A DNA stretch of 64,000 bases from a virus (Duplodnaviria; Caudoviricetes), in the IMG/VR virus record IMGVR_UViG_3300031760_000022, positions 24,323 through 88,322 of that record. The stretch is one strand, 5' to 3'. The position numbers were made by a program, and so were the translations under genes. The notes below the pieces were generated by a model. The model saw nothing but the letters and a program-made list of their open reading frames with translations, searched no databases and was not told the origin of the DNA. Shown piece after piece: positions 1,388-49,384 of the stretch. Each line of letters begins with the position of its first letter. Within the stretch, counting starts at the first letter, position 1.

Positions 1388-2598
1388 GAATTTTTAGACC
1401 ACTATAAACCCGTTGAACTGCTGGAAACCCCTTAGAGCTATATAAACTACAACATAAGGATGAAATATACCTAAGTGTGAATGTTTGAAAATTATATGGA
1501 TTGGGCAATCAGCAACGAAGTTCCAAATAGGAAAACGCTCAACGACTATCCTGAAAAGGAGTACACTACAAGCGTTTGGTAGTGGAAGTGGCGGGTGTTT
1601 TTATATATCAATTACTTTAAAATAAAAAGTGGTGAAACTAATATTTAATCAAAATCAAAAAGTTAAAGTAAAATGGAATAGTTATACAAGAAAATATTTT
1701 GAAGAACTTGGATATACATTTTCTAAGTTAGGTGAAGAATTTGAAGTTTTTGCGTATGAATTGCAACCGTATTCTAATGTAAAAATAGAAGTGGTGTGCG
1801 ATTATTGTGGAAATATTTATTATCCAACCTATCATAATTTTTATAAGAAAAAAGATAAAAAACATTGTTGTAGAAATTGTGTTTCTAAAGTATCAAAAGA
1901 AACTTGTTTAAAAAAATATGGTAAAGAACATTATTCGCAAACCATCGAAAGCAAAGAGCATAAAAAACAAACTTTTATAAAACATTATGGTGTAGAAAAT
2001 CCTTCTCAGTCAAAAGAAATTCAAAATAAGAAAAAAGAAACAAATAAAAATAAATTTGGTAAAGAATGGTTCGTTGAATCGGATGAATTTAAAAAACAAA
2101 ATTTAATTCGTTATGGTGTAGAAAATCCGATGCAAAATCACGAGGTAAGAGAAAAGGCGGCTAAATCCATTACGGCGAATAATAATTATCCAACTTCAAA
2201 AGAAGAAAATAAATTTATTGGAATTTTGAAAGATATTTTCGGAGAAGAAAAATGTTTAATAGGTCAATATTGCAGAAGATATGTTTTAGATTGTCTATTA
2301 ATTGTTGAAGATATTAAGATAGATATTGAATACGATGGTTGGTATTGGCATAATTTGAAGCAAGATTCTGATAAAGTTAGAGATGAATATATGCTGTCGA
2401 AAGGGTATAAAGTTTTGCGATTTGTTTCTAAAGGAACTATGCCACAAAAAGAATTGATTATTGATTGTGTAAAACAACTGTGTGAAACCAATCAAAAATT
2501 TTTACAAATTCAAATTGATATATAAAAACAAAGATATAGTCTATTCTTATATGAAAATATAAGTTTTATAAGCATGAAGTTGCGATTCATGTTAAATG
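1388..2598 (+). mobile_element. Group I intron in terL (phage IA2-like) with endonuclease ORF in P8
   Basis: P1 agtggtt/gaccact with U.G at the splice site; core GAACTGCTGGAAACCC, AATCAGCAACGAAG, CTCAACGACTATC, AAGATATAGTC; 14-bp P8 (1597-1610/2516-2529); terminal G2598; splicing restores the frame (YEW-LKSFKEFKNTV). Confidence 0.92.
1629..2525 (+). CDS. Intron-encoded homing endonuclease, Vsr/DUF559-like (PD-(D/E)xK)
   Basis: CDYCG/CRNC zinc ribbon, repeated YGVENP motifs, C-terminal LDCLL..IDIEYDGWYWH..RD..KGYKVLRF. Confidence 0.8.
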   Translation: MVKLIFNQNQKVKVKWNSYTRKYFEELGYTFSKLGEEFEVFAYELQPYSNVKIEVVCDYCGNIYYPTYHNFYKKKDKKHCCRNCVSKVSKETCLKKYGKEHYSQTIESKEHKKQTFIKHYGVENPSQSKEIQNKKKETNKNKFGKEWFVESDEFKKQNLIRYGVENPMQNHEVREKAAKSITANNNYPTSKEENKFIGILKDIFGEEKCLIGQYCRRYVLDCLLIVEDIKIDIEYDGWYWHNLKQDSDKVRDEYMLSKGYKVLRFVSKGTMPQKELIIDCVKQLCETNQKFLQIQIDI

Positions 2599-3739
2599 AA
2601 AAAGTTTTAAAGAATTTAAAAATACTGTCGCTGGATATTATACTTCCAAGCATGAAAAATATATTCCTTTTGCAGAAGATATTTTTGCGGCAATTGAAGA
2701 AGGAAGTAGGACTTGGGCAGATTATAGAAAAAGCAAAAAACAAATGTCTGTTTTAGACTTTAATGCTGAAATTCTAAATCAAATGATTGGTGAATCAGAA
2801 TCTTCATTCTTTAGTTATAAAGAATTTAATGAAAATAGAACTATGAAACAAGCATTTGTCCCTCCTAAACCATTAGACATATTTTTAGATAATGATTTGG
2901 GAAATCCTAAACCCGAAGATACTGAAATTAGATTAATTGGTATTGACTATGCTTTTGCGAATACTACTGGTGGGACAAAGAATGACGCAACACAGATAAT
3001 GTGTATGTCGCTTCATTGGAAGAATCGCCACTTTGAAAGGCACATTGATTATATTGAAGGTCACGAAGCGAGTGATAGTATTGGTGCTAATAATAGATGC
3101 AGAGAATTGGCATGGGATTATTCTATGGGTGCTGAATTTTATGTAATTGCTGATACAAGAAGCGGTGGAGAAACGCTTTTTAATAGAATGACAATGCCTT
3201 GGAAGAATCCAAATAGAGAAGGATTTTGGGATGAAAGAGGTTTCGGTGTTGCTACAAATCCTAGGCTTCATGTTGTTACTGAAGCAAAGTTGGAAGATTT
3301 AAGAAATAGAACAATTGATGCTGATGCAGTTTCTTGTATAGTTCCTATTATTGGTTCTTCTGAATTAAATAGTTCTTGTTGGGTATCTTTAAAGAAAAAT
3401 TTAGAATTAAATAATATAAAGTTTTTAATTTCCCCAGAAGATAAACAAACAGAACTAGAAGATAATGGGAAATATTATAAAATTACTAGTGAAGAACTTG
3501 CAGATATTTTATATCCACATTATATGACAGAAAATTTAATTCAAGAAGCGGTTGGATTAACTTCTGAAATTAGGGATAATAGAATTAGGTTACATGAAGT
3601 TGGCACAAACACCAAAGACTTAATTGTTCTATTGTCTTATTTAAGTTATATTGCAGATAAATTAGAAAATGAATATAATAAATATTTTTATGAAGAAGAA
3701 CATACAGATGATAATGAACTGTTACAATTAGTTTTTTAA
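2599..3739 (+). CDS. terL: Terminase large subunit, exon 2 (nuclease domain); spliced product about 627 aa
   Basis: In frame with ORF 2744..3739; RNase H-type LIGIDYA and IADTRSGG motifs. Confidence 0.9.
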
Positions 3740-3755
3740 GAAAGGAGGGGCATTT

Positions 3756-5333
3756 TTGGCAGAAGAATTAACAAGAAGCCAAGTAGAAGAAATTGTTGAA
3801 TTTGTAAATGGTCTTAGGAATGCTTCTAATTATAATTATGTGTTGAACGAAAGACAAGGGTTTTATAGTCCTTTTCTTCAAAATCAACAATTAAATCAAT
3901 TAAATAATAATCCTTTAGTTCCTTCTTCTATGGAGAAGATAGAAACTGCGCTTGCACAATATAAAGACCAAGGAATTGTATTACAGGGCTTTACTGAATT
4001 TATGCAAAAATGGGATATGATTTTTACTAGGGTTTTAAGGTCTTATAGTGATATATTATCTTTTGATTTACAGATAGTTCCTAAAGGTGAATATACAAAA
4101 CAAGAATTAAATTCTAATGAATTTTTAGAAGATAAGAAAAGAATTTATAGATTTCTTGACGCTTTTGATTATAAGAATGAATTTCATAAAATGTGTGTTG
4201 AAGTAATGCGTCACGAAATAGTTTATACTTGGTTAAGAAAAACAAAGTGGAATAATCAAGGTATGAAGGGTACACTTCAAATTATGCCTCAAAAATATTG
4301 TATGCTGACAGGGTATTGGGAAAAAGGATTACTCTTTGATTTTGATATGAGTTATTTCTTAAATCCCGGCGTAGATATTGATGGTTTTGACCCAATATTT
4401 AAGAAATATTATAATGAAATGTTTACTAATGGGGAATATGCAAATTATATTCCAACTGCGCCCTTTACAGACAGAACAGGAACCTATGCCCTGTGGCATC
4501 AAACTTCCCCAGAAGATGGGGCGTTTTGTTTTAAATTTGATACAAGTAATTTCAATAACACTCCTTTCTTAGCTCCATTTATAAAAAACTGTTTTACAAA
4601 TGATGAAATTGCCAATTTACAAAAAGACAAAGATATGATTTCTGCGTATGCAATTTTAGCTGGTGAAATTAGACTGTTCGACAATGCAAAGTCTGGTACG
4701 GTTAAAGACCAATTTGCTATTGCTCCTAATACATTGGGCAAGTTTATGGGTTTGGTCAAAAATGGGTTAGACAAACATATTAAAGCGGTTGCCATGCCTA
4801 CAGAAAACACAGACTTTTATCAATATAATGACAGTAATAAAGATATGTATAATACACATTTGAGTGCTGTTGCGGGTGTTGGTTCTGGATTATCCAGAAT
4901 AATTTTTAGTTCTGATAGAATGTCTAATGCTGAAATTCAATATGCTGTAGAAACTCAATATAATTTGATGAAACCAATGTATGCCCAATTTGAAAATTTC
5001 TTAGATTATTTTGGTAATAAATTAACGAGGAAATATAAGTTTAGTTTTATTCTTGATGGGTGTGCTTATGAATTTGAAAAAGAAAAAAGAGTAGATAGGT
5101 TAATCAAATTAGCTGATAAAGGTATGATTCTTGACCCTAGCGCTTATGCTTTCATAGCAAATATGCGTCCACAAGAATTTGAAAGGTCTTTGGCTTCGGC
5201 TCAAGCCAGTAAATGGTATTTGAAATTAGGTTTATTCCCAAATACAAATACTGCTTCTAATGGGTCTGATGGTAGACCAACTTTACCTTCTGATGAATTG
5301 TCCGATTCTGCTGAAGAAAGTAGAAATCAATAA
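3756..5333 (+). CDS. Portal protein
   Basis: 525 aa immediately after terL; TTG start with AAGGAGGG RBS. Confidence 0.75.
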   Translation: MAEELTRSQVEEIVEFVNGLRNASNYNYVLNERQGFYSPFLQNQQLNQLNNNPLVPSSMEKIETALAQYKDQGIVLQGFTEFMQKWDMIFTRVLRSYSDILSFDLQIVPKGEYTKQELNSNEFLEDKKRIYRFLDAFDYKNEFHKMCVEVMRHEIVYTWLRKTKWNNQGMKGTLQIMPQKYCMLTGYWEKGLLFDFDMSYFLNPGVDIDGFDPIFKKYYNEMFTNGEYANYIPTAPFTDRTGTYALWHQTSPEDGAFCFKFDTSNFNNTPFLAPFIKNCFTNDEIANLQKDKDMISAYAILAGEIRLFDNAKSGTVKDQFAIAPNTLGKFMGLVKNGLDKHIKAVAMPTENTDFYQYNDSNKDMYNTHLSAVAGVGSGLSRIIFSSDRMSNAEIQYAVETQYNLMKPMYAQFENFLDYFGNKLTRKYKFSFILDGCAYEFEKEKRVDRLIKLADKGMILDPSAYAFIANMRPQEFERSLASAQASKWYLKLGLFPNTNTASNGSDGRPTLPSDELSDSAEESRNQ

Positions 5334-10337: not shown

Positions 10338-11631
10338 AATGTTTGAAACCATTTTGTCAAGTTCACCTTCTTATACCCCAAACAATTTTTATCGTGAATT
10401 AGAACAGGCTTTTATTGATAGTCAATGGGAAAATACAACTTCTCTTTTAACAATTCAAGAACAAGATGTTACATTACTCCAAGAAGATTATTTTCAAGAT
10501 TTTACTTTTGAACCTATAGAAGTTTGGGTTGATACTGTTGTTGGACAAACTTCTACAGGGTCTAAAACTGGTAGAGATTTCCTTAAATTGATTTTTAAAG
10601 ATATAAATCATCCTAAATATGAAGGTCGTTATTATATTGTTAATAATGAATATTATATTAGTTATTTTGATAATCGTGTTGTGGATGTAGACGCTAATTT
10701 AAGTGTGCGTAGGTGCAACCAATGGATGAAAATTGTTGACCCTATGAATGGAAGTATTTATCAAATTCCTGTCGTTGTGGATTATGATATGACAGCTTCT
10801 TCTAATAGGGTGACAAGTTCTGTAATTACTCCTAATAACCATGCTTCTGTTAAAGTTCAACAAAACGCATTCACGGACAGATTGTTTAAAACTAATGCAA
10901 GATTTATTTTGGGTGGTAGACCTTTCAAGATTACAGGTATGCAGAATGCTACTAATCAATTTATTAACAATGATTTGGCTAGTTTAATGGATATAGATTT
11001 GTTTTTGGATGAAATTTGGGAACAAGATAATCTTGAAGATGGAATTGCTTATAATGGAACATATGATTATATTGTTGATATTAACGGACAAGATATGGAA
11101 CTGATTCCAAATAGTACAGGACAATTATATTCTAGTGTTCTTTTGAATGGAGAACAGGTAGAAAGAATCGTGTTGTGGAATACTTCTGATGAAAGTGTAG
11201 TAACAGTAACACAAGAAGGAGAATATAGTGTAGTTGGCGAAGTTGGGCAGACAGCTTATATTACTGCATCTTTGTACGGCAATGAAGATATTTTTGACAA
11301 AATAAACATTACTATTGTAGATGAATCTATGGTTCAAGCAGATGTTATTATTGACCCTGTAATTACTGGTATTAGAGAATATGAAAGTGTCCAAATAACT
11401 GTTTTGGGATTGTATAATGGCTTAACGGTTAAGCCAGATAATGTAACTTTAAGTCTTGACGCAGAAGTGTATAATTATTTAAATTATACACAAAATGATA
11501 ATGTTTTTACTTTAACTTGTTTAAAAAGATGCAATAATGTTATCCCAATGATGTTTACAATAAGTTCTACAAATCCTGATTATACTGTTAGTAAGGTTGT
11601 AGAAATTAAATTAACAAGTCTATTAGGGTAA
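10327..11631 (+). CDS. Putative head-closure/neck protein with C-terminal Ig-like domains
   Basis: Ig-like segment VLWNTSDESVVTVTQEG in the C-terminal half; position. Confidence 0.55.
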   Translation: MPFEMFETILSSSPSYTPNNFYRELEQAFIDSQWENTTSLLTIQEQDVTLLQEDYFQDFTFEPIEVWVDTVVGQTSTGSKTGRDFLKLIFKDINHPKYEGRYYIVNNEYYISYFDNRVVDVDANLSVRRCNQWMKIVDPMNGSIYQIPVVVDYDMTASSNRVTSSVITPNNHASVKVQQNAFTDRLFKTNARFILGGRPFKITGMQNATNQFINNDLASLMDIDLFLDEIWEQDNLEDGIAYNGTYDYIVDINGQDMELIPNSTGQLYSSVLLNGEQVERIVLWNTSDESVVTVTQEGEYSVVGEVGQTAYITASLYGNEDIFDKINITIVDESMVQADVIIDPVITGIREYESVQITVLGLYNGLTVKPDNVTLSLDAEVYNYLNYTQNDNVFTLTCLKRCNNVIPMMFTISSTNPDYTVSKVVEIKLTSLLG

Positions 11632-11643
11632 GGAGGATTTTGT

Positions 11644-12216
11644 ATGTATAATAGTTTAAGTCGCTTACCTTTAATAGCTTATAATATTTTAGTGTATTTA
11701 GCAAAGCAATCTTCTGCTGAAGATATATGGAAAATGTTAAAATATAATGACTATAATTGTTTGTCAAAACCTAATTTGACTTTTAGTGAAAAAATGGAAT
11801 TGATATGGAAAAATGGGCCACAAGAAAATTTTAGCGTTTTTCTTTCACCTTTAGTAGAAGATGCTGTGACCGAATCAAAATCTATTATGAAAATATATGA
11901 TTATTATATCCAGCCTAGAGAAAGATATTGGAGTGCTGTTATTTTTGCTTTTGATTTTCTATATGGTGGAAATATGGCCTTGATTGATTATAAGGGTATT
12001 CCAAGTTCTAGGGGAGATGTTTTTATTCATAGTGTTTTATCTACTCTGAATGGCGTTGAAATTGGTGGAATAGGGAAATTAAGTTTTGAAGATGATGTAA
12101 GCCGCTATAGTTTGGCGAAAGCCACTATGGGAAATGAACGTACATTTTGCGGTGTACAGCTTTATTTGACGGTTAGAATAGGGGATGCTGGAACATCTTC
12201 CGAATGTGATGATTGA
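11644..12216 (+). CDS. Putative tail terminator/neck protein
   Basis: 190 aa with GGAGG RBS; position before tail tube. Confidence 0.45.
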   Translation: MYNSLSRLPLIAYNILVYLAKQSSAEDIWKMLKYNDYNCLSKPNLTFSEKMELIWKNGPQENFSVFLSPLVEDAVTESKSIMKIYDYYIQPRERYWSAVIFAFDFLYGGNMALIDYKGIPSSRGDVFIHSVLSTLNGVEIGGIGKLSFEDDVSRYSLAKATMGNERTFCGVQLYLTVRIGDAGTSSECDD

Positions 12217-31309: not shown

Positions 31310-31365
31310 AATAAATAAAAAAAGAGAGATAAATTTAATTATTTATCTCTCTTTTTTTATTTATT
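31310..31365. terminator. Bidirectional terminator between convergent genome arms
   Basis: 25-bp perfect inverted repeat with A/T tracts on both sides. Confidence 0.85.
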
Positions 31366-31798
31366 TTCCAGAACTTCCAAATCCACCAATTCCACGTTCT
31401 GTAGAACTTAATTCTTCAGATTCTACAAGATTACATTCAATACAAGAATGGATAATCATCTGAGCAATTTTTTCGTTAGGTGAAATTTGTCTAATATAAG
31501 TATTACTATCATTATGAATAGCAACAATAACTTCGCCTCTGTAAGAGCTATCAACAACACCAACACAATTAGCTGGGCGCAGATTTTCCTTTGTAGCTAA
31601 ACCAGACCTAGCATAGATTCCACCAAAATATCCTTCAGGAATTTCCCAAGCAAATCCAATAGGAATCATAACGGTTTCGTGTGGGGGGATGTAAACATTT
31701 TCTTCTAAGCAAGCATACAAATCAAATCCTGCGTCTGTTGGATGTGCTTTAGTAGGAATCTTTGCGTTATCGTGCAATCTTTTAATTTTAATTTCCAT
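31361..31798 (-). CDS. dut: dUTP diphosphatase (trimeric)
   Basis: DAGFDL, ARSGLA, GVVDSSYRGE, RGIGGFGSSG motifs. Confidence 0.95.
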   Translation of the reverse strand: MEIKIKRLHDNAKIPTKAHPTDAGFDLYACLEENVYIPPHETVMIPIGFAWEIPEGYFGGIYARSGLATKENLRPANCVGVVDSSYRGEVIVAIHNDSNTYIRQISPNEKIAQMIIHSCIECNLVESEELSSTERGIGGFGSSGK

Positions 31799-31814
31799 TT
31801 GTTTTCCTTTCAAA

Positions 31815-45219: not shown

Positions 45220-45272
45220 AAATCCCCTTTCTAATGATACTTAATTATACCATAAGAAAGGGGATTTGTCAA
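45220..45272 (-). promoter_or_regulatory. SigmaA promoter within a 13-bp inverted repeat
   Basis: TTGACA-17-TATAAT; arms 45220-45232 and 45255-45267; downstream arm contains the SD. Confidence 0.85.
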
Positions 45273-45274
45273 TA

Positions 45275-46120
45275 TTATTTTTTATATTTTTCATTTATAA
45301 TTTTTGGCACGGCGCAATTCCAGTTTATTTTATGATGTATTCTTGTGTGGTCTGTAGCCATAGCATCTATTGTTACACAGCTTGGGTTTGTCATAACCGT
45401 ATAAAAAGATTTCATATAAGTACCATCATCATTATAAGTATCTGACATACCGCCTTTATTTTTTTGCGTTGTTTTTTGAACCAAAGAACAATCAACAACA
45501 GTAAAAAACAATTTCCCAAGTTTACCAAGTTGAACATAAGTGTTTACATCTTCATTTATTCGCCCAAAGAATTGAAATGGATTATTAGTTTTACAAAAAA
45601 AGCTATTCATAGCTTTGCGTTTGATTTTGTGGTTGAAATCATATCCGCCAATTCCACCAAGTAAATCCCCGCCTTGGGCAAAAGCTACTGTTAAAGCGTT
45701 TGTATCTTCAAGAAAATCAATGAATATATCCACAACTTTATCAAATTCTTTTGATTTCATTACTTTTAATTTATCGCCACCATCGTAACGATATTCAAAT
45801 GAAGTATAGTCATCATCAAATTGGGCGAAATATTTTAATCCTAATTCTTTTGCGGCTTGAAAACAATAGTTTCTTGCGTACACAATTACTTTTTCAGAAC
45901 CACCAGAATCACACAAATCAAAAGTTTTACCTATTTCTTCTTTATTAAAAATAAGTAAATTATTTGGATAAAGTTCTTTATATCTATCTAAGGTGGGGTC
46001 ATCATCACTCACAACAATGTAGTATTGCCCTGTATAATTAGCATTTTTTAAAGAATTTAATGTATAAATGTTATCTGCCCTTTTGTAAGACATTATAAAA
46101 ATAGCAAAATCATTACGCAT
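45275..46120 (-). CDS. GT-A fold glycosyltransferase (TET-associated/GREB1-like type)
   Basis: FIMSYKRA nucleotide-binding start, FAQFDDDY DxD motif, GRINEDVN, KSFYTVM. Confidence 0.7.
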   Translation of the reverse strand: MRNDFAIFIMSYKRADNIYTLNSLKNANYTGQYYIVVSDDDPTLDRYKELYPNNLLIFNKEEIGKTFDLCDSGGSEKVIVYARNYCFQAAKELGLKYFAQFDDDYTSFEYRYDGGDKLKVMKSKEFDKVVDIFIDFLEDTNALTVAFAQGGDLLGGIGGYDFNHKIKRKAMNSFFCKTNNPFQFFGRINEDVNTYVQLGKLGKLFFTVVDCSLVQKTTQKNKGGMSDTYNDDGTYMKSFYTVMTNPSCVTIDAMATDHTRIHHKINWNCAVPKIINEKYKK

Positions 46121-46481
46121 TTTCTTCCAGCCTACTTCCTACAATTTCAGCCATGCGCTTATTAAGCTTTACATAACCTTTAGCTATTGCGTCATCAAAA
46201 TCAATAATCACCAACGCAGAGTCCTCCATAAGTTCTTGCATTTCAGGCGATGCAGAAGCGTAATAATCAGCTATTTTAGAATAATTAAATATAGTATGCC
46301 GTCTTGCGGCACAAAGTAAAAATTTCTTTTCTAAATCGCTTACATTAGATTGAAGAATTTTAGCTTTTAATTCTTTATATTTTGAATTATCAACGCATTC
46401 TTGCAGACGGGGGGGGCAAGATTTTGGTGTATACTGTGGAACATTCATTTTATAATTATATTTATATTTTCTTTCAGACAT
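46113..46481 (-). CDS. Hypothetical protein coupled to the glycosyltransferase
   Basis: 122 aa overlapping the GT start; AARRHTIFNYSKIADYY..ALVIIDFDDAI. Confidence 0.7.
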   Translation of the reverse strand: MSERKYKYNYKMNVPQYTPKSCPPRLQECVDNSKYKELKAKILQSNVSDLEKKFLLCAARRHTIFNYSKIADYYASASPEMQELMEDSALVIIDFDDAIAKGYVKLNKRMAEIVGSRLEENA

Positions 46482-46505
46482 TATTTATCCTACTTTCAGC
46501 TATAT

Positions 46506-47276
46506 TTAATAATGTGACATAATGTAATTGTGTTTATTTATATCCCAAGAAGTGTTAATTTTTTTATTAATATATTTTTTATTCAATATAGGATTTTTAT
46601 TTCTTGTTCTATATAGTAGGGTAGTATAAATACCAAGTTCACTACATATTTCTTCTATTTTACTATAAGTATTTATTTCACCAGTAATTACATGAATCCA
46701 AAATTTAGAAGCTAAATATTCTAAATCTTGCTTTAATAAATTATAATCAATATTTTTATCTTCTATCAACAATGTTTTAATTGATTTATTGCCATAATCT
46801 TTTCCCATATATTGAAAACTATAGGCAATTCTATGTAATTGTTGGTCTTTAATTCCTTGTTTTATTTTAGTTGCTTTGCCTTTTCCACCTGTACTTACTT
46901 TGCCAGAAGTACCGCTTTCTTTCCAATTAAAATTATTTCTTAAATAATTAACAAGGCGCAAATGCGTTGTGCGAATATATAGTTTTTTTCCTTTGGAAAA
47001 ATAGTATTCTGCTATATATGATAAAAATTTTGTACCAAATCCCAATCCTTGATAATCTGGTAGAATCACCAGTCTGCTTACACGATAAGCGTATTTTATA
47101 TCACCGTTGGGCATTGGTAGTACACCACAAAAACCAACAACAATATCATTCCAATAACAAGTGTAAACAGTACAGGCTTTATTTAATTCTGCACTTAAAT
47201 AGTGATGTTCCCTAAATACGCTCCAAATCTCTTTGTTGTTTGATTCGTAGATTTGGAGCGTAATACTTCCCCCAAG
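46506..47276 (-). CDS. GNAT acetyltransferase; frame open from 47276 with no upstream start codon, probably fused to the ATPase by -1 frameshift
   Basis: WSVFREHHYLS and RVSRLVILPDYQGLGFG (acetyl-CoA motif); the first lies upstream of the first ATG (47114). Confidence 0.8.
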   Translation of the reverse strand, partial: LGGSITLQIYESNNKEIWSVFREHHYLSAELNKACTVYTCYWNDIVVGFCGVLPMPNGDIKYAYRVSRLVILPDYQGLGFGTKFLSYIAEYYFSKGKKLYIRTTHLRLVNYLRNNFNWKESGTSGKVSTGGKGKATKIKQGIKDQQLHRIAYSFQYMGKDYGNKSIKTLLIEDKNIDYNLLKQDLEYLASKFWIHVITGEINTYSKIEEICSELGIYTTLLYRTRNKNPILNKKYINKKINTSWDINKHNYIMSHY

Positions 47277-47911
47277 TCAGCACCCCGACAATCAAAACAT
47301 TTCGCTTCGTCTACATCTATTACAAAGTCTGGTTTAAGGAATGGAATATAATCATTGTGACAAGAACAAAACACAACATGACGCATATTATTTTTACGAA
47401 TATATTTAGCAATAGAATTACAAGTTGACTTAGCAACATTTCTATCAATAGTAGAAGTAAATTCGTCAAAAATCATTTCGCTATTTATATTAAGAGCCAA
47501 ATCTGCCCTAAATCCTTCGCCTATTGATAAAACATTTCTAGGTCTACACCAAACAGGCATTGAATTAAGTCCTACTGCACTTAATCTATAAGAAGCATCT
47601 TGTGGTGAATCAAAGTTAGATACAATAGCTTTAATATTATCATATGTTTTGTGCTTTTTATTATAAAAAGGCAATTCTTTAAGTAAAGTAGATTTGCCCC
47701 CCCCACTTGAACCTGTAATTACTAAAATTTGATAATCTATTTGATTTAATTCTTGTGGAAATTCATAAGGAAAAAATTTACTTTCGCCTGTAAAATCATA
47801 GTCAAAATTATTTTGAACCATGTCAGTAAATTCGTCAATAGGAACTTTAGATATAAGTGGTTCTTTCTTCTTTTTTAGGTTGCACAAAACATTACATTCT
47901 TTATAATTCAA
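47195..47911 (-). CDS. ABC-type ATPase without membrane partner
   Basis: GSSGGGKST Walker A, LSIGE signature-like, IFDEF Walker B, CSCH switch; TTG start. Confidence 0.85.
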   Translation of the reverse strand: MNYKECNVLCNLKKKKEPLISKVPIDEFTDMVQNNFDYDFTGESKFFPYEFPQELNQIDYQILVITGSSGGGKSTLLKELPFYNKKHKTYDNIKAIVSNFDSPQDASYRLSAVGLNSMPVWCRPRNVLSIGEGFRADLALNINSEMIFDEFTSTIDRNVAKSTCNSIAKYIRKNNMRHVVFCSCHNDYIPFLKPDFVIDVDEAKCFDCRGADLGEVLRSKSTNQTTKRFGAYLGNITI

Positions 47912-48378
47912 ATAAATCCACCTTCAACCTTTATAAATTCTTCTATAAATTTTTCTTTAACTTTTTCCCAAGCAAAACATCCATCTCTATCTGGACGCTT
48001 TTTCTTCAATAATCTTTTAATATAATCTTTAGGATATTTCGGCAAACAATCTTTACCGTGTGTAAAAAATCCTTGACCTTCTAATCTTTTAGCTTTTGCC
48101 ATATTTTCATTACACCAAAGCCAATAGTGGGGTATACCATCACAAGGAATGTGCATAAGTTCTATTTTATCGCCAATAATATAAATAGTATTATTTTTAT
48201 CTAATGTAACATCAGCAGACCAAATTTCACCCGAAGGGGTTAAATCAAGCGTTCCATAAAAACTTGTGTAATGTGGGCCTTTACCTGTAAGATAGTCGCT
48301 ATAATAACTAGGTTCATTCCCCATATACATAGCTTCCGTGTAATTGGGAAAAGTTTCCATCATCCATTTTTTATCCAT
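47908..48378 (-). CDS. Hypothetical protein
   Basis: First gene after promoter 48382-48432; true start ATG 48378. Confidence 0.65.
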   Translation of the reverse strand: MDKKWMMETFPNYTEAMYMGNEPSYYSDYLTGKGPHYTSFYGTLDLTPSGEIWSADVTLDKNNTIYIIGDKIELMHIPCDGIPHYWLWCNENMAKAKRLEGQGFFTHGKDCLPKYPKDYIKRLLKKKRPDRDGCFAWEKVKEKFIEEFIKVEGGFI

Positions 48379-48381
48379 AAA

Positions 48382-48432
48382 AAATCCCCCTTTATTGATA
48401 CTGATTATATCATATAAAGGGGGATTTGTCAA
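48382..48432 (-). promoter_or_regulatory. SigmaA promoter within a 14-bp inverted repeat
   Basis: TTGACA-17-TATAAT; arms 48382-48395 and 48414-48427; downstream arm contains the SD. Confidence 0.88.
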
Positions 48433-48440
48433 GTGTTATT

Positions 48441-49370
48441 TTATTCAGTCACACCAATCAGTGCCATAGCCCTATCCATAATAGGATGACCATTCATAAT
48501 CCTGCCCCAATTGTTTTCTGCATAGCTTTCAGTTGCCCTAGCGGGGTTAGCATGACCAACCCAATCGCTAACAGCGTTGATAAATCCCCACTTAGTATTA
48601 AGGAACTTAATAAGGTCAGGTGCAAGCATACAAGCCTGAATACCATCCTTGGCAAGCTGAATGTTATTCTTCTTCCTGTCGCTCATATCTTCAGTAATGG
48701 GGAAAAGTTCATCAAGCACAGCGTTTACATCTTCGGGCATAAACTTTTCATTAGCAAGCCTATCAGCGTTTTCAGCAAGCGCATCAAGATAATCATTTGC
48801 AAGCTGAAGGGTATGCTTTGCTTCCTGCAATTTACTGTTCATATCCCCCATATGTTTAGTAGACCAAGACCTAGTAGCACTACTAAGAGCAAGATTAAGA
48901 GTATTATTGCAGACTACACGAATAGGGGTAGATACTACACGAATAGCACCAGTACCATCATGGCTGTTAGTAAAACAAATATAAGGGTCAAAATTATCGT
49001 CAAGAATCTTTCTTTCAGGCATCTTAGCAAGAAGCCAAATAGTCTTACCGTTTTTCAGACTACCAGCAGTTTCATAAGTAACACCTTCGCCAACAAGATT
49101 ATCAGTAAAATCAAACGCTTCAAAATTCTGAACAACCTTATAACGGTCAGTTACAACGCCAAGAACACTACCATCAGAACTACGGGTATTAGCCTTGTAA
49201 CCCTTGATTTCAACACCATTGGAATCATAGACAGGCTTCCCATCAACAGTCCAATTCAGTCCAGCGAGGTCAAGAGCATCTTTGCTTGTGGGGGCTTCCT
49301 GAACAATGGTTCCAAGACCGTGCCACGGGGTTTCACGAACACTAAACATAGTTTCTACATTAGCCGACAT
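48441..49370 (-). CDS. DUF932-family phage/plasmid protein
   Basis: RETPWHGLG..AGLNW, VVQNFEAF, ETAGSL, NSHDGT, RVVCNNTL. Confidence 0.85.
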   Translation of the reverse strand: MSANVETMFSVRETPWHGLGTIVQEAPTSKDALDLAGLNWTVDGKPVYDSNGVEIKGYKANTRSSDGSVLGVVTDRYKVVQNFEAFDFTDNLVGEGVTYETAGSLKNGKTIWLLAKMPERKILDDNFDPYICFTNSHDGTGAIRVVSTPIRVVCNNTLNLALSSATRSWSTKHMGDMNSKLQEAKHTLQLANDYLDALAENADRLANEKFMPEDVNAVLDELFPITEDMSDRKKNNIQLAKDGIQACMLAPDLIKFLNTKWGFINAVSDWVGHANPARATESYAENNWGRIMNGHPIMDRAMALIGVTE

Positions 49371-49384
49371 AATCAATTCCTCCT

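What the first reader, a model, noticed from the sequence alone, without database searches (positions are those of the whole stretch)
45275..48378. Candidate DNA hypermodification operon: ABC ATPase-GNAT, small partner and GT-A glycosyltransferase
Seen: five closely spaced or overlapping genes bounded by two hairpin promoters: hypothetical, soluble ABC ATPase, GNAT acetyltransferase, 122-aa protein, DxD glycosyltransferase. There is no permease for the ATPase. No TET/JBP dioxygenase or hydroxymethylase is present in the window to provide the usual 5hmC/5hmU acceptor. Established: Mu Mom is a GNAT-fold DNA modifier, and TET-associated/GREB1-like glycosyltransferases were predicted as phage base modifiers (Iyer and Aravind). 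Inference: an uncharacterised pathway, e.g. glycosylation plus acetylation of a base or sugar, protecting DNA from restriction or CRISPR; host-surface or protein modification cannot be excluded.
Basis: partly seen in the sequence, partly recalled or inferred. Interest (0 to 1): 0.82.

Follow-up and report, generated by a model that had tools for sequence, protein, structure and literature searches.

The report
Two separate phage DNA-modification modules
One phage transcription unit joins two unrelated, widely conserved but untested enzyme modules, a frameshift-fused ATPase-acetyltransferase and a glycosyltransferase with a small ParB-derived partner, that most likely decorate phage DNA without the usual hydroxymethyl acceptor.

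Summary
The genes are real and lie between two perfect sigma-70 promoters. They are two independent modules, not one pathway.

Module A is a single unit, not two genes. The GNAT frame (-1) is open from 47276 but has no start codon before 47114, so half the GNAT fold has no initiation codon. A G-run followed by a 14-bp hairpin is conserved in five phages. The -1 fusion product aligns colinearly with seven naturally fused ATPase-GNAT proteins. This family is the "GNAT coupled with an ABC ATPase" that Iyer/Aravind predicted to acylate a DNA base. This scan had already noted the same frameshift in giant phages on other DNA.

Module B: the 122-aa protein is the C-terminal domain of a ParB-like partner. 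That partner sits directly upstream of the TAGT glycosyltransferase in 32 of 33 assessable related loci. Here the ParB nucleotide-binding domain is missing. A complex model supports binding (0.74; best control 0.20). Both genes are under purifying selection.

No TET/JBP, ThyA-like hydroxymethylase, C5-methylase or 2OG oxygenase was found in the 88-kb genome. TET/JBP and ThyA were also absent from 24-25 related records.

A close relative lacks module A, and Thomasclavelia phage TR-TP1 has module A without TAGT. The substrates remain untested. DNA is the best-supported guess.

The parts
48404..48432 (-). Promoter P1: TTGACA-17 nt-TATAAT with a TG extension. One arm of an inverted repeat lies in the spacer (about 48426-48414). 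The other arm (about 48395-48383) covers the Shine-Dalgarno sequence of the first gene.
   Evidence: 12/12 consensus match. Sequence read.
47908..48378 (-). Gene 1: a 156-aa protein of unknown function. It is not consistently linked to either module.
   Evidence: No Pfam, PHROG, NCBIfam or PADLOC hit. Only 14 relatives among 1.84 billion representatives. Relatives sit in replication modules without TAGT. A homolog is present in L003.
47195..47911 (-). Module A, frame 0: ABC-type ATPase, 238 aa, TTG start. Walker A is GSSGGGKST, the signature-like motif is LSIGEG, Walker B is FDEF, and the H-loop is CSCH.
   Evidence: phrog_11143 E 4e-49. 501 homologs, the best 120 of them 64-95% identical. AF2 model pLDDT 87, with the frame-0 tail 217-238 below 50. 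All top Foldseek hits are ABC nucleotide-binding domains, E about 3e-6.
47217..47275 (-). Putative -1 frameshift cassette. It consists of the slip run TTG_GGG_GAA (47275-47267), a 4-nt spacer, and a 14-bp stem with a 17-18-nt loop (47262-47217).
   Evidence: Hairpin -26.9 kcal/mol, z -3.5. Across 5 phages, 14 pairs are predicted and 3 carry compensatory changes. L038 has the canonical G_GGA_AAA at the same place.
46506..47276 (-). Module A, -1 frame: a 256-codon open frame. The GNAT fold spans residues 5-159 (about 47264-46800). An unassigned alpha/beta C-terminal domain spans residues about 165-256 (about 46784-46509). The first in-frame ATG is at 47114.
   Evidence: No ATG/GTG/TTG between 47276 and 47114. 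AF2 pLDDT 89.8. GNAT match Z 14.5, rmsd 3.3, 141 aligned residues to 1y9k. The 468-aa -1 fusion is colinear with 7 natural fusions.
46113..46481 (-). Module B partner: 122 aa. It equals the linker motif plus the C-terminal domain of a ParB_N+CTD protein. The ParB nucleotide-binding domain is absent.
   Evidence: phrog_620 positions 136-217, E 1.8e-9. Alignment A3 has 15 invariant columns. 662 longer relatives are almost all about 246 aa with PF02195. dN/dS is 0.13 against L003.
45275..46120 (-). Module B enzyme: TAGT-family GT-A glycosyltransferase, 281 aa. It overlaps the partner gene by 8 nt. The DDD motif (F98..D103 D104 Y105) and the NED motif are intact.
   Evidence: PF20691 E 1.2e-36 and phrog_842 E 4e-68. 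56 invariant columns in 27 sequences. dN/dS is 0.049 against L003.
45244..45272 (-). Promoter P2. It starts the next unit (a 131-aa protein, then RecJ-like) and marks the 3' limit of the locus.
   Evidence: 12/12 consensus match. Sequence read.

Best explanation
The stretch is one transcription unit holding two independent nucleic-acid modification modules, most likely acting on DNA. Each is a self-contained cassette found alone in many other phages.

Module A. The ATPase gene is read in two ways.
- Normal reading gives a 238-aa ABC-type ATPase.
- A programmed -1 slip on the G-run at 47275-47267, ahead of a 14-bp hairpin, gives a 468-aa ATPase-GNAT-C-terminal-domain protein.
- ABC ATPases work as ATP-sandwich dimers. 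I infer that ATP-driven dimerisation (short+long or long+long) clamps the polymer and presents a base to the acyl-CoA-dependent GNAT site. That would give an N-acyl base.

Module B. The TAGT glycosyltransferase works as a complex with the 122-aa protein.
- The 122-aa protein is the surviving C-terminal domain of a ParB-like adaptor. In most relatives the adaptor also carries the ParB NTP-binding clamp domain.
- I infer that the adaptor brings the enzyme to double-stranded DNA, or activates it there, as ParB does for phage thymine dioxygenases.
- I infer that the sugar goes to a position that needs neither TET/JBP nor a hydroxymethylase.

Shown here: the gene anatomy, the frameshift signals and their conservation, the folds, the colinearity with fused forms, the partner-TAGT linkage, the modelled interface, purifying selection, the independence of the two modules, and the absence of known acceptor-forming enzymes.

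Inferred: the substrates (DNA), the chemistry, and the anti-restriction role.
For: Module A, frameshift:
- The -1 frame is open from 47276 with no start codon before 47114.
- The -1 peptide GG(S/N)ITLQ..IW.VFR.HHYLS, the G-run and the frame-0 stop context are conserved in five phages.
- Hairpin z is -3.5, and three pairs show compensatory changes.
- The GNAT fold needs residues 5-159 of the -1 ORF, so an ATG-started protein would lack its first strands.
- The frame-0 tail is disordered.
- The fusion is colinear with phiE255 gp29, LE4 gp15, Nonlabens gp24, EastWest gp75, Shatter gp2, P0304 and P0313.

Module A, family and context:
- The ATPase has the ABC fold.
- It belongs to the same family as the Tenacibaculum pT24 protein (H17), which PMC7824862 names as a predicted DNA-base acylation system.
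- It sits next to DNA polymerases.
- It is overlapped upstream by ParB_N genes near the terminase in P335, Javan530, EastWest and LE4.
- In the Mu-like phiE255 it sits after the tail-fibre genes. From my own knowledge, Mu's mom gene is in that position.

Module B:
- A partner lies directly upstream of TAGT in 32 of 33 assessable loci.
- TAGT follows the partner in 3 of 3 contexts reached through the partner.
- The partner's N-terminal domain matches solved ParB CTPase domains, E 7.5e-8.
- Complex model: score 0.74 against a best of 3 controls of 0.20. That mark was reached by 58 of 80 solved complexes and 2 of 110 mismatched pairs. The runs agree in at least 0% of contacts, and partner pLDDT is at least 68.
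- dN/dS is 0.049 for TAGT and 0.13 for the partner, at dS of about 0.8.
- ParB activates phage 5mYOX on dsDNA (PMC13229309).

Independence of the modules.
Against: - No experiment bears on either substrate.
- Every characterised TAGT-family or other phage DNA glycosyltransferase acts on a hydroxymethyl, hydroxy or sugar hydroxyl. None of those is predicted in this phage.
- The authors of bioRxiv 2023.12.21.572611 regard glycosyltransferases without a neighbouring 5mYOX/ThyS as less obviously DNA enzymes.
- In the 5mYOX system both the ParB NBD and CTD were required. Here the NBD is missing from the whole genome.
- The slip site G_GGG_GAA is not a canonical X_XXY_YYZ heptamer.
- In many relatives a GTG at the 'V' of LQVY could start the GNAT independently.
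- The closest solved GNATs are protein or small-molecule acetyltransferases, not nucleic-acid enzymes.
- One of the three complex runs scored only 0.27.
- The genome is 93% complete, not closed.
Confidence: 0.55

Rival explanations
1. One integrated pathway. Sugar and acyl group end up on the same base, for example as an acetylated glycan or a glycosylated acyl side chain, and the five genes depend on each other.
For: The genes share one promoter-to-promoter unit with short gaps and overlaps. In other phages both enzyme types are partnered by ParB-like proteins. GNAT is listed among the domains that co-occur with 5mYOX pathways.
Against: L003 keeps a 95%-identical TAGT and its partner under purifying selection with no ATPase-GNAT. 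The five ATPase-GNAT contexts examined have no TAGT nearby, and the complete TR-TP1 genome has none. None of the 35 other TAGT loci has an ATPase-GNAT homolog within 8 kb.
Confidence: 0.1
2. The targets are not DNA. The GNAT acetylates a host or phage protein (as phiKMV Rac does) or an RNA (as TmcA does). The glycosyltransferase modifies a protein, teichoic acid or small molecule.
For: The best structural matches of the GNAT are protein N-acetyltransferases such as RimI and Naa50. There is a weak hit to the TmcA-type GNAT PF13718, E 6e-4. About 65% of phage GT contigs lack a base-modification neighbour. The phage carries 9 tRNA genes.
Against: Both modules are repeatedly partnered by ParB-fold DNA-clamp proteins. 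They sit in replication or packaging modules. TAGT is a family whose characterised members act on DNA (PMC13216743). The ATPase is ABC-type, not the helicase type of TmcA.
Confidence: 0.2
3. This is classical hydroxymethyl-pyrimidine glycosylation after all. An unrecognised acceptor-forming enzyme exists: a divergent 5mYOX, gene 1, DUF932, the ThyX homolog, or something in the unsequenced 7%.
For: PMC13229309 reports thousands of 5mYOX-profile contigs that lack a PF12851 annotation. The genome has a ThyX homolog and several unassigned genes. DUF932 lies just upstream here, in L003 and in L050.
Against: There was no PF12851, PF13640, PF13532 or PF00303 signal even at E<=1 in six frames. None of 24-25 related records has one, including the complete 38-kb phi jlb1 genome. 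DUF932 is present in only 2 of the TAGT loci. Gene 1 relatives are not linked to TAGT.
Confidence: 0.15
4. ATPase and GNAT are made as two separate proteins. The GNAT starts at a non-standard codon or at ATG 47114, the overlap is ordinary gene packing, and there is no frameshift.
For: Gene callers give about 250-aa GNAT proteins starting at a GTG in many relatives. The slip site is non-canonical.
Against: In this window the corresponding codon is ATC, and no ATG/GTG/TTG precedes 47114. The -1 peptide upstream of that GTG is conserved and corresponds to strand 1 of fused relatives. A conserved hairpin follows the G-run.
Confidence: 0.12

Closest known systems
ParB-dependent phage thymine dioxygenases (5mYOX/ParB pairs; O'Toole et al., PNAS 2026, PMC13229309)
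   Same: A ParB-like protein with an NBD and CTD but no obvious DNA-binding domain is encoded next to a DNA-modifying enzyme and is needed for its action on dsDNA. Such loci often also hold glycosyltransferases and lie near the terminase. The partner family found here has the same NBD+CTD layout in most relatives.
   Different: The enzyme partnered here is the glycosyltransferase itself. No 5mYOX exists in this genome or in 25 related records. In this phage the NBD is lost and only the CTD remains.
T2/T6 beta-glucosyl-HMC-alpha-glucosyltransferase and TET-associated glycosyltransferases (Pfam TAGT, PF20691)
   Same: It is the same Pfam family by a wide margin, with an intact DDD motif. The family is known or predicted to glycosylate modified pyrimidines in phage DNA (PMC13216743).
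   Different: There is no alpha- or beta-GT, no hydroxymethylase and no TET. This is one of the 'solitary TAGT homologs' that PMC13216743 counts in 288 of 753 phage genomes and leaves unexplained. It has an obligate-looking ParB-derived partner.
GNAT coupled with an ABC ATPase, predicted DNA-base acyl modification system (Iyer et al. 2013, as cited in PMC7824862)
   Same: It is the same protein family: there is a tblastn hit to the Tenacibaculum pT24 gene named in that paper, and it aligns with fused forms.
   Different: Here the two domains are joined only by a -1 frameshift. The GNAT carries an extra C-terminal alpha/beta domain of about 90 aa that the short fused forms lack. The function is unproven in every member.
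Phage Mu Mom (GNAT-like N6-adenine carbamoylmethyl transferase)
   Same: It has an acyl-CoA-type fold and is proposed to modify DNA bases. The fused relative in the Mu-like phiE255 sits after the tail-fibre genes. The position of mom in Mu is from my own knowledge.
   Different: No sequence match to Mom was seen. Mom has no ATPase.
TmcA / NAT10 (ATP-dependent N4-acetylcytidine synthase)
   Same: It combines an ATPase and a GNAT in one protein acting on a nucleic-acid base. There is a weak hit to its GNAT model PF13718.
   Different: The ATPase of TmcA is helicase-like, while this one is ABC-type. The PF13718 score is below the cut-off. TmcA's substrate is tRNA.
dnaX tau/gamma programmed -1 frameshift
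   Same: One gene gives a short and a long product through a slip site followed by a hairpin.
   Different: In dnaX the frameshift gives the short product. Here it gives the long one. The slip run is G-rich and non-canonical in four of the five sequences.

Membership tests
TAGT glycosyltransferase (PF20691) | Whole-protein score above Pfam's gathering cut-off | tested here: met
   127 bits against 27.5, E 1.2e-36, profile positions 1-205 of 205.
TAGT glycosyltransferase (PF20691) | Intact acidic metal/sugar-nucleotide motif (DxD) and other family-invariant residues | tested here: met
   D103, D104, Y105 and N189, E190, D191 are invariant or nearly so in 27 sequences.
TAGT glycosyltransferase (PF20691) | Genomic association with TET/JBP or a hydroxymethylase that supplies the acceptor | tested here: not met
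   No PF12851 or PF00303 match at E<=1 in the own genome or in 24-25 related records.
TAGT glycosyltransferase (PF20691) | Transfers a sugar to DNA | not testable with these tools
   Needs nucleoside mass spectrometry or an enzyme assay.
ParB-CTPase fold protein (PF02195), tested on the 122-aa protein | N-terminal nucleotide-binding ParB domain | tested here: not met
   No Pfam hit in P0004. No PF02195 match anywhere in the genome at E<=1. The alignment shows P0004 starts after the NBD.
TAGT-associated ParB-like partner family | Conserved linker motif (Y..K..P.Y.P) and C-terminal helical domain, encoded directly upstream of TAGT | tested here: met
   15 invariant columns. Longer relatives reach E 5e-34. 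There is an 8-nt overlap with TAGT.
ParB-dependent 5mYOX system | A 5-methylpyrimidine dioxygenase next to ParB | tested here: not met
   Upstream neighbours in relatives are Metallophos, PD-(D/E)XK or unassigned proteins.
ABC ATPase | Walker A, signature-like LSxGE, Walker B DE, and H-loop, in that order | tested here: met
   G67-S74, L128-E132, D149-E150 and H185 are invariant in 35 sequences, and the motifs line up in the fused relatives.
ABC ATPase | ABC nucleotide-binding-domain fold | tested here: met
   The AF2 model has pLDDT 87. All top Foldseek hits are ABC NBDs, E about 3e-6, TM about 0.5.
ABC ATPase | Pfam ABC_tran score above cut-off | tested here: inconclusive
   P0002 itself gives only weak P-loop hits. 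Fused relatives score 30.5 and 24.9 bits against a cut-off of 25.
GNAT acyltransferase | Complete GNAT fold with the acyl-CoA motif (Q/R-x-x-G-x-G/A) | tested here: met
   Z 14.5, rmsd 3.3, 141 aligned residues over residues 5-159 of the -1 ORF. The QGLGFG motif is present. Acetyltransf_1 scores 21.0 bits against 20.7 on the truncated ORF.
GNAT-ABC ATPase predicted DNA acylation system (Iyer et al.) | Homology to the named members (e.g. Tenacibaculum pT24) and ATPase-then-GNAT order | tested here: met
   tblastn hit H17, E 1e-19. Paper text. Colinear alignment.
GNAT-ABC ATPase predicted DNA acylation system (Iyer et al.) | Acylates a DNA base | not testable with these tools
   This is a prediction in the literature as well. 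No assay exists.
Programmed -1 ribosomal frameshift | Downstream ORF in the -1 frame, overlapping, coding, and without its own start | tested here: met
Programmed -1 ribosomal frameshift | Slippery X_XXY_YYZ heptamer | tested here: inconclusive
   It is G_GGG_GAA here and G_GGG_GAA/G in three relatives. Only L038 has the canonical G_GGA_AAA.
Programmed -1 ribosomal frameshift | Stimulatory RNA structure a few nucleotides downstream, conserved | tested here: met
   A 14-bp stem lies 4 nt after the run, z -3.5. It is kept in 5 sequences, with 3 compensatory pairs. Both arms are also coding, so conservation alone is weak evidence.
Programmed -1 ribosomal frameshift | Two protein products observed | not testable with these tools
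   Needs proteomics or a reporter assay.
TmcA-type RNA acetyltransferase | Helicase-type ATPase domain plus PF13718 GNAT above cut-off | tested here: not met
   The ATPase is ABC-type. PF13718 scores 19.7 bits against 24.6.

The most novel reading that the evidence does not exclude
The ParB-derived adaptor and the solitary TAGT form a two-protein enzyme that glycosylates ordinary double-stranded DNA directly, on a canonical base or another position that needs no prior hydroxymethylation. That would be a widespread and so far unknown kind of DNA glycosylation. This phage would show that the ParB NTPase domain is dispensable for it. Next to it, a frameshift-made ABC-GNAT enzyme would add an acyl group to a base, so the phage would carry two new DNA marks.
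Probability: 0.25. Interest if true: 0.88.

Novelty: new variant of a known kind. Interest (0 to 1): 0.6.

Why it matters
Both modules belong to large phage families that the literature flags as unexplained. PMC13216743 counts solitary TAGT homologs in 288 of 753 phage genomes. The ABC-GNAT system has been predicted since 2013 and never tested.

This locus offers compact test cases.
- Module B is a two-gene glycosyltransferase cassette in a genome with none of the Pfam acceptor-forming families searched for. A positive DNA-modification result could not be explained by the known 5hmC/5hmU chemistry.
- The partner here is naturally truncated. That separates the role of the ParB C-terminal domain from that of the NTPase domain.
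- Module A can be locked in either reading frame.

New DNA marks would matter for phage escape from restriction and CRISPR, for phage therapy host range, and as enzymatic tools for DNA labelling.

Tried and rejected
- Gene 1 as the missing acceptor-forming enzyme. It has no family hit, no usable Atlas hit and only 14 relatives. The relatives whose context could be read are not next to TAGT. Rejected as a module member.
- DUF932 as a linked component. It is present upstream only in L003 and L050 among all TAGT loci. Not pursued.
- The GNAT C-terminal extension as a hidden ParB domain. Profile-profile comparison of A4 with A3 gave nothing (probability 0.7%). phmmer found no link.
- Structure searches of the 256-aa model were filled by the GNAT domain, so the C-terminal domain remains untested.
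- Sequence searches of the PDB found no solved relative of TAGT, the partner CTD or the ATPase.
- PADLOC and NCBIfam gave only P-loop noise.
- Back-translated pattern search for the ATPase in viral contigs found nothing. Relatives came from the protein database instead.
- Rfam has no family in the locus.
- The 2013 Iyer et al. paper could not be read, so its claim is cited through PMC7824862.
- One literature search on the old enzyme name returned only noise.
- TAGT could not be looked for in the metagenome contigs behind L038, L039 and L041, because those records are not held.

Full report
WHAT IS THERE

The window is bases 24323-88322 of an 88.3-kb IMG/VR phage record. CheckV rates it 93% complete, and GC is about 31%.

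On the - strand, between two 12/12 TTGACA-17-TATAAT promoters with TG extensions (48432-48404 and 45272-45244), lie:
- a 156-aa protein, 48378-47908. Its true start is the ATG at 48378. The TTG that the ORF listing picks at 48432 is the -35 box.
- an ATPase, 47911-47195.
- a GNAT ORF, ATG 47114 to 46506.
- a 122-aa protein, 46481-46113.
- a 281-aa glycosyltransferase, 46120-45275.

The flanks are DUF932 (48441-49376) and a 131-aa protein followed by a RecJ-like nuclease. The whole region belongs to the replication module, which also holds primase, DnaB, PolIII alpha, NrdD, ThyX and dUTPase.

MODULE A IS ONE FRAMESHIFTED GENE

The ATPase and the GNAT both match a single 357-position PHROG, phrog_11143. 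The ATPase covers positions 8-189 and the GNAT covers 258-353.

Reading the DNA shows three things:
- The GNAT frame is the -1 frame of the ATPase.
- It is open from 47276.
- It contains no ATG, GTG or TTG before 47114.

The 54 codons upstream of that ATG encode a conserved peptide, GG(S/N)ITLQ(V/I)Y ... IW(R/S)VFR.HHYLS. It is found in the same -1 overlap in Thomasclavelia phage TR-TP1 and in three metagenomic phages. All of them end the ATPase frame with the same ..ITI-stop context.

An AlphaFold2 model of the whole -1 ORF (256 aa, pLDDT 89.8) places the GNAT fold at residues 5-159. The best match is Z 14.5, rmsd 3.3 A, 141 aligned residues to 1y9k. A protein started at ATG 47114, which is residue 55, would therefore lack the first strands and helices of the fold.

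The overlap begins with TTG_GGG_GAA at 47275-47267. In L038 the same place holds the canonical G_GGA_AAA. Four nucleotides further on is a 14-bp stem at 47262-47217 (-26.9 kcal/mol, z -3.5). The stem is kept in all five sequences, and three pairs carry compensatory changes. Both arms also code, so this conservation is only supportive.

The ATPase model (pLDDT 87) is confident to about residue 212. It is disordered in the frame-0 tail 217-238, the part that lies after the slip site.

The 468-aa product of a -1 slip on the GGG codon has the junction ..ADLG-GSITLQ... It aligns without a junction gap of more than a few residues to seven naturally fused ATPase-GNAT proteins: Burkholderia phiE255 gp29, Leptospira LE4 gp15, Nonlabens P12024S gp24, Arthrobacter EastWest gp75, Gordonia Shatter gp2, P0304 and P0313.

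I conclude, with about 85% confidence, that the gene makes a short ATPase and a long ATPase-GNAT protein. Earlier notes of this scan reported the same arrangement in giant phages on other DNA. I used them as a lead and tested the claim here on this subfamily.

WHAT MODULE A IS

The ATPase has Walker A, an LSxGE signature-like motif, Walker B and an H-loop. These are invariant in 35 sequences. Its model matches only ABC nucleotide-binding domains at the top of the Foldseek list.

The family is large. There are 501 hits, and the best 120 are 64-95% identical and 230-254 aa long.

[quoted passage not shown] They name Tenacibaculum phage pT24 (PMC7824862). pT24 is among my tblastn hits.

The contexts fit a DNA-linked role:
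- The gene sits beside PolA or PolIII alpha in large phages.
- In temperate phages a ParB_N protein overlaps its start and the terminase follows. Examples are Lactococcus P335 Orf23, Streptococcus Javan530_0028 and Arthrobacter EastWest gp74. Leptospira LE4 gp14 is a weak case.
- In the Mu-like phiE255 the fused gene follows the tail-fibre genes. From my own knowledge, Mu keeps mom in that position.

The subfamily in this window carries an extra C-terminal alpha/beta domain of about 90 aa that the short fused forms lack. Its fold was not resolved.

MODULE B IS A GLYCOSYLTRANSFERASE WITH A ParB-DERIVED PARTNER

The glycosyltransferase is a clear TAGT-family member: PF20691 at 127 bits, and phrog_842 at E 4e-68. 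Its DDD and NED motifs are intact.

The 122-aa protein matches only the last 80 positions of a ParB-like PHROG. Among 36 loci with TAGT relatives, 33 have enough upstream DNA to judge. In 32 of those 33, a homolog of the 122-aa protein lies immediately upstream, usually overlapping.

In most loci that homolog is about 240 aa. It consists of a ParB_N nucleotide-binding domain followed by the region that aligns with the 122-aa protein, which is a Y..K..P.Y.P motif plus a helical domain with 15 invariant positions. The Pfam hits are, the profile match to solved ParB CTPase domains (E 7.5e-8) is, and the alignment is.

A database search for longer relatives returned 662 proteins. Nearly all are about 246 aa with PF02195, and none is fused to TAGT. 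Three contexts reached through the partner all have TAGT next and a terminase nearby. One of them is a Dysgonomonas contig.

Here, in L003 and in L037 the ParB NBD is missing. The whole genome has no PF02195 match.

A complex prediction supports binding of the 122-aa protein to TAGT:
- The score is 0.74, against a best of 3 controls of 0.20.
- That mark was reached by 58 of 80 solved complexes and 2 of 110 mismatched pairs.
- The runs agree in at least 0% of contacts, and partner pLDDT is at least 68.
- One of the three runs scored 0.27.
- The interface uses the PQYTP motif and the conserved helices.

This is a model, not a measurement.

Against L003, dN/dS is 0.049 for TAGT and 0.13 for the partner domain, at dS of about 0.8. 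Both genes are therefore maintained in the lineage that lacks the NBD.

THE MISSING ACCEPTOR

Six-frame HMM searches of the whole genome at E<=1 found none of the following:
- TET/JBP
- ThyA-like hydroxymethylase
- C5-methyltransferase
- two general 2OG-oxygenase families

None of 25 related records has TET/JBP, and none of 24 has a ThyA homolog. These records include the complete 38-kb Lactobacillus phage phi jlb1, where ParB-like and TAGT genes sit just before the small terminase. The immediate upstream neighbours in relatives are varied and are not oxygenases.

The phage does encode ThyX and dUTPase, so it should contain ordinary thymine.

The published picture is as follows:
- ParB-like proteins activate a subclass of phage thymine dioxygenases on dsDNA (PMC13229309).
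- ParB genes neighbour phage DNA glycosyltransferases, and about 65% of glycosyltransferase contigs have no 5mYOX/ThyS neighbour (bioRxiv 2023.12.21.572611).
- Solitary TAGT homologs occur in 288 of 753 phage genomes with unknown function (PMC13216743).

I found no paper on the ParB-TAGT pair as such.

THE TWO MODULES ARE INDEPENDENT

- L003 is the closest relative, with TAGT 95% identical and the same primase, RecJ and polymerase neighbours. Its order is hypothetical, partner, TAGT, with 73 nt between the first two. It has no ATPase in its 51-kb record.
- The complete TR-TP1 genome has the ATPase-GNAT and no TAGT.
- None of the other TAGT loci has an ATPase-GNAT homolog within 8 kb.
- Gene 1 is a near-orphan, and its relatives are not TAGT-linked.

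The 'operon' is therefore a transcription unit into which a second cassette was inserted, not a pathway.

HOW IT MOST LIKELY WORKS

Shown by the analysis: the anatomy, the folds, the linkage and the selection.

Inferred for module A:
- ATP-driven dimerisation of the ABC domains, in short/long or long/long combinations fixed by the frameshift ratio, clamps nucleic acid.
- The clamp presents a base to the GNAT site for acyl-CoA-dependent N-acylation. This is the logic of TmcA, with a different ATPase.

Inferred for module B:
- The adaptor holds TAGT and delivers it to dsDNA or activates it there.
- In most relatives the adaptor's ParB NTPase domain supplies DNA loading. Here that function is lost, or is supplied otherwise.
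- The sugar is placed on a site that needs no hydroxymethyl group.

I put about 55% on DNA as the substrate of both modules. I put about 25% on the strongest version, direct glycosylation of canonical DNA.

The rivals are non-DNA targets, a hidden acceptor-forming enzyme, a true joint pathway, and separate translation of the GNAT. They are listed with their evidence in the Rival explanations section.

VERDICT

Both modules are plausible DNA modifiers and the acceptor enzymes are absent, but this is not one pathway.
- Each module is a member of a family already flagged in the literature as uncharacterised.
- New here are three points: the partner is identified as a ParB C-terminal domain that persists without its NTPase domain, a model supports a partner-TAGT complex, and this ATPase-GNAT subfamily is joined by a conserved -1 frameshift.
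- Novelty rating: new variant of a known kind. Interest: 0.6.

Noticed in passing
window 48383-48426 and 45220-45272: In the 'hairpin promoters', the 5' arm of the inverted repeat lies in the -35/-10 spacer, upstream of the likely transcription start. The 3' arm covers the Shine-Dalgarno sequence (AAAGGGGG). The repeat therefore cannot form entirely in the mRNA. It looks more like a DNA-level operator or cruciform site.
   Followed up: partly
window 61298-63978: A cluster of 9 tRNA genes lies on the - strand: Ser-UGA, Leu-CAA, Gln-UUG, Gly-UCC, Thr-UGU, Glu-UUC, Ile-UAU, Pro-UGG and Lys-UUU.
   Followed up: no
L003:7560-8008: In the closest relative, the first 25 codons of the partner gene (MSERKYKYNYKMNVPQYAPKSAPP) are in a different frame from the rest. 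This is either a real frameshift or a homopolymer assembly error near a C-run.
   Followed up: partly
L007, L008, L011, L012, L028 (about 7228-8011 in L008): In these loci the ParB-like partner is split into an NBD ORF of 172-211 aa and an overlapping 99-aa CTD ORF in another frame. L006, L009 and L010 have it intact at 260-288 aa. The split could be a pseudogene, two subunits, or another programmed frameshift.
   Followed up: no
L038 (ENA contig of 139 kb): A phage carrying the same ATPase-GNAT cassette translates correctly only with TAG read as Gln, so it is a stop-codon-recoded phage.
   Followed up: no
L051:2408-4140 (Burkholderia phage phiE255): The fused ATPase-GNAT gp29 lies after the tail-fibre genes of this Mu-like phage. 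It is followed, with overlap, by a formyltransferase-like gene (gp30, PF00551 in the record's annotation), which could make the acyl donor.
   Followed up: no
G000:C1 1-24322 (left of the window) and window 31361-60594: The genome also encodes an AIG2/GGACT-like protein (G000 3196-3663), a weak Amidoligase_2 hit (10931-11884), SprT-like (1721-2239) and DUF1599, 'nucleotide modification associated domain 1' (ORF not located). It further encodes ThyX, dUTPase (window 31361-31813), NrdD, a Dam-like D12 methylase, a class-V aminotransferase and a DenV-like glycosylase.
   Followed up: partly
window 46509-46784: The last 90 or so residues of the GNAT reading frame form a confidently modelled alpha/beta domain (pLDDT above 90). 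The short fused relatives lack it, and no structural match was obtained for it.
   Followed up: partly
L049 (Dysgonomonas contig), 2017-3821: The same prophage-like region that has ParB-CTD partner+TAGT also has a second, separate ParB_N gene next to a PAPS-reductase/DUF3440 gene. That makes two different ParB-enzyme pairs in one element.
   Followed up: no
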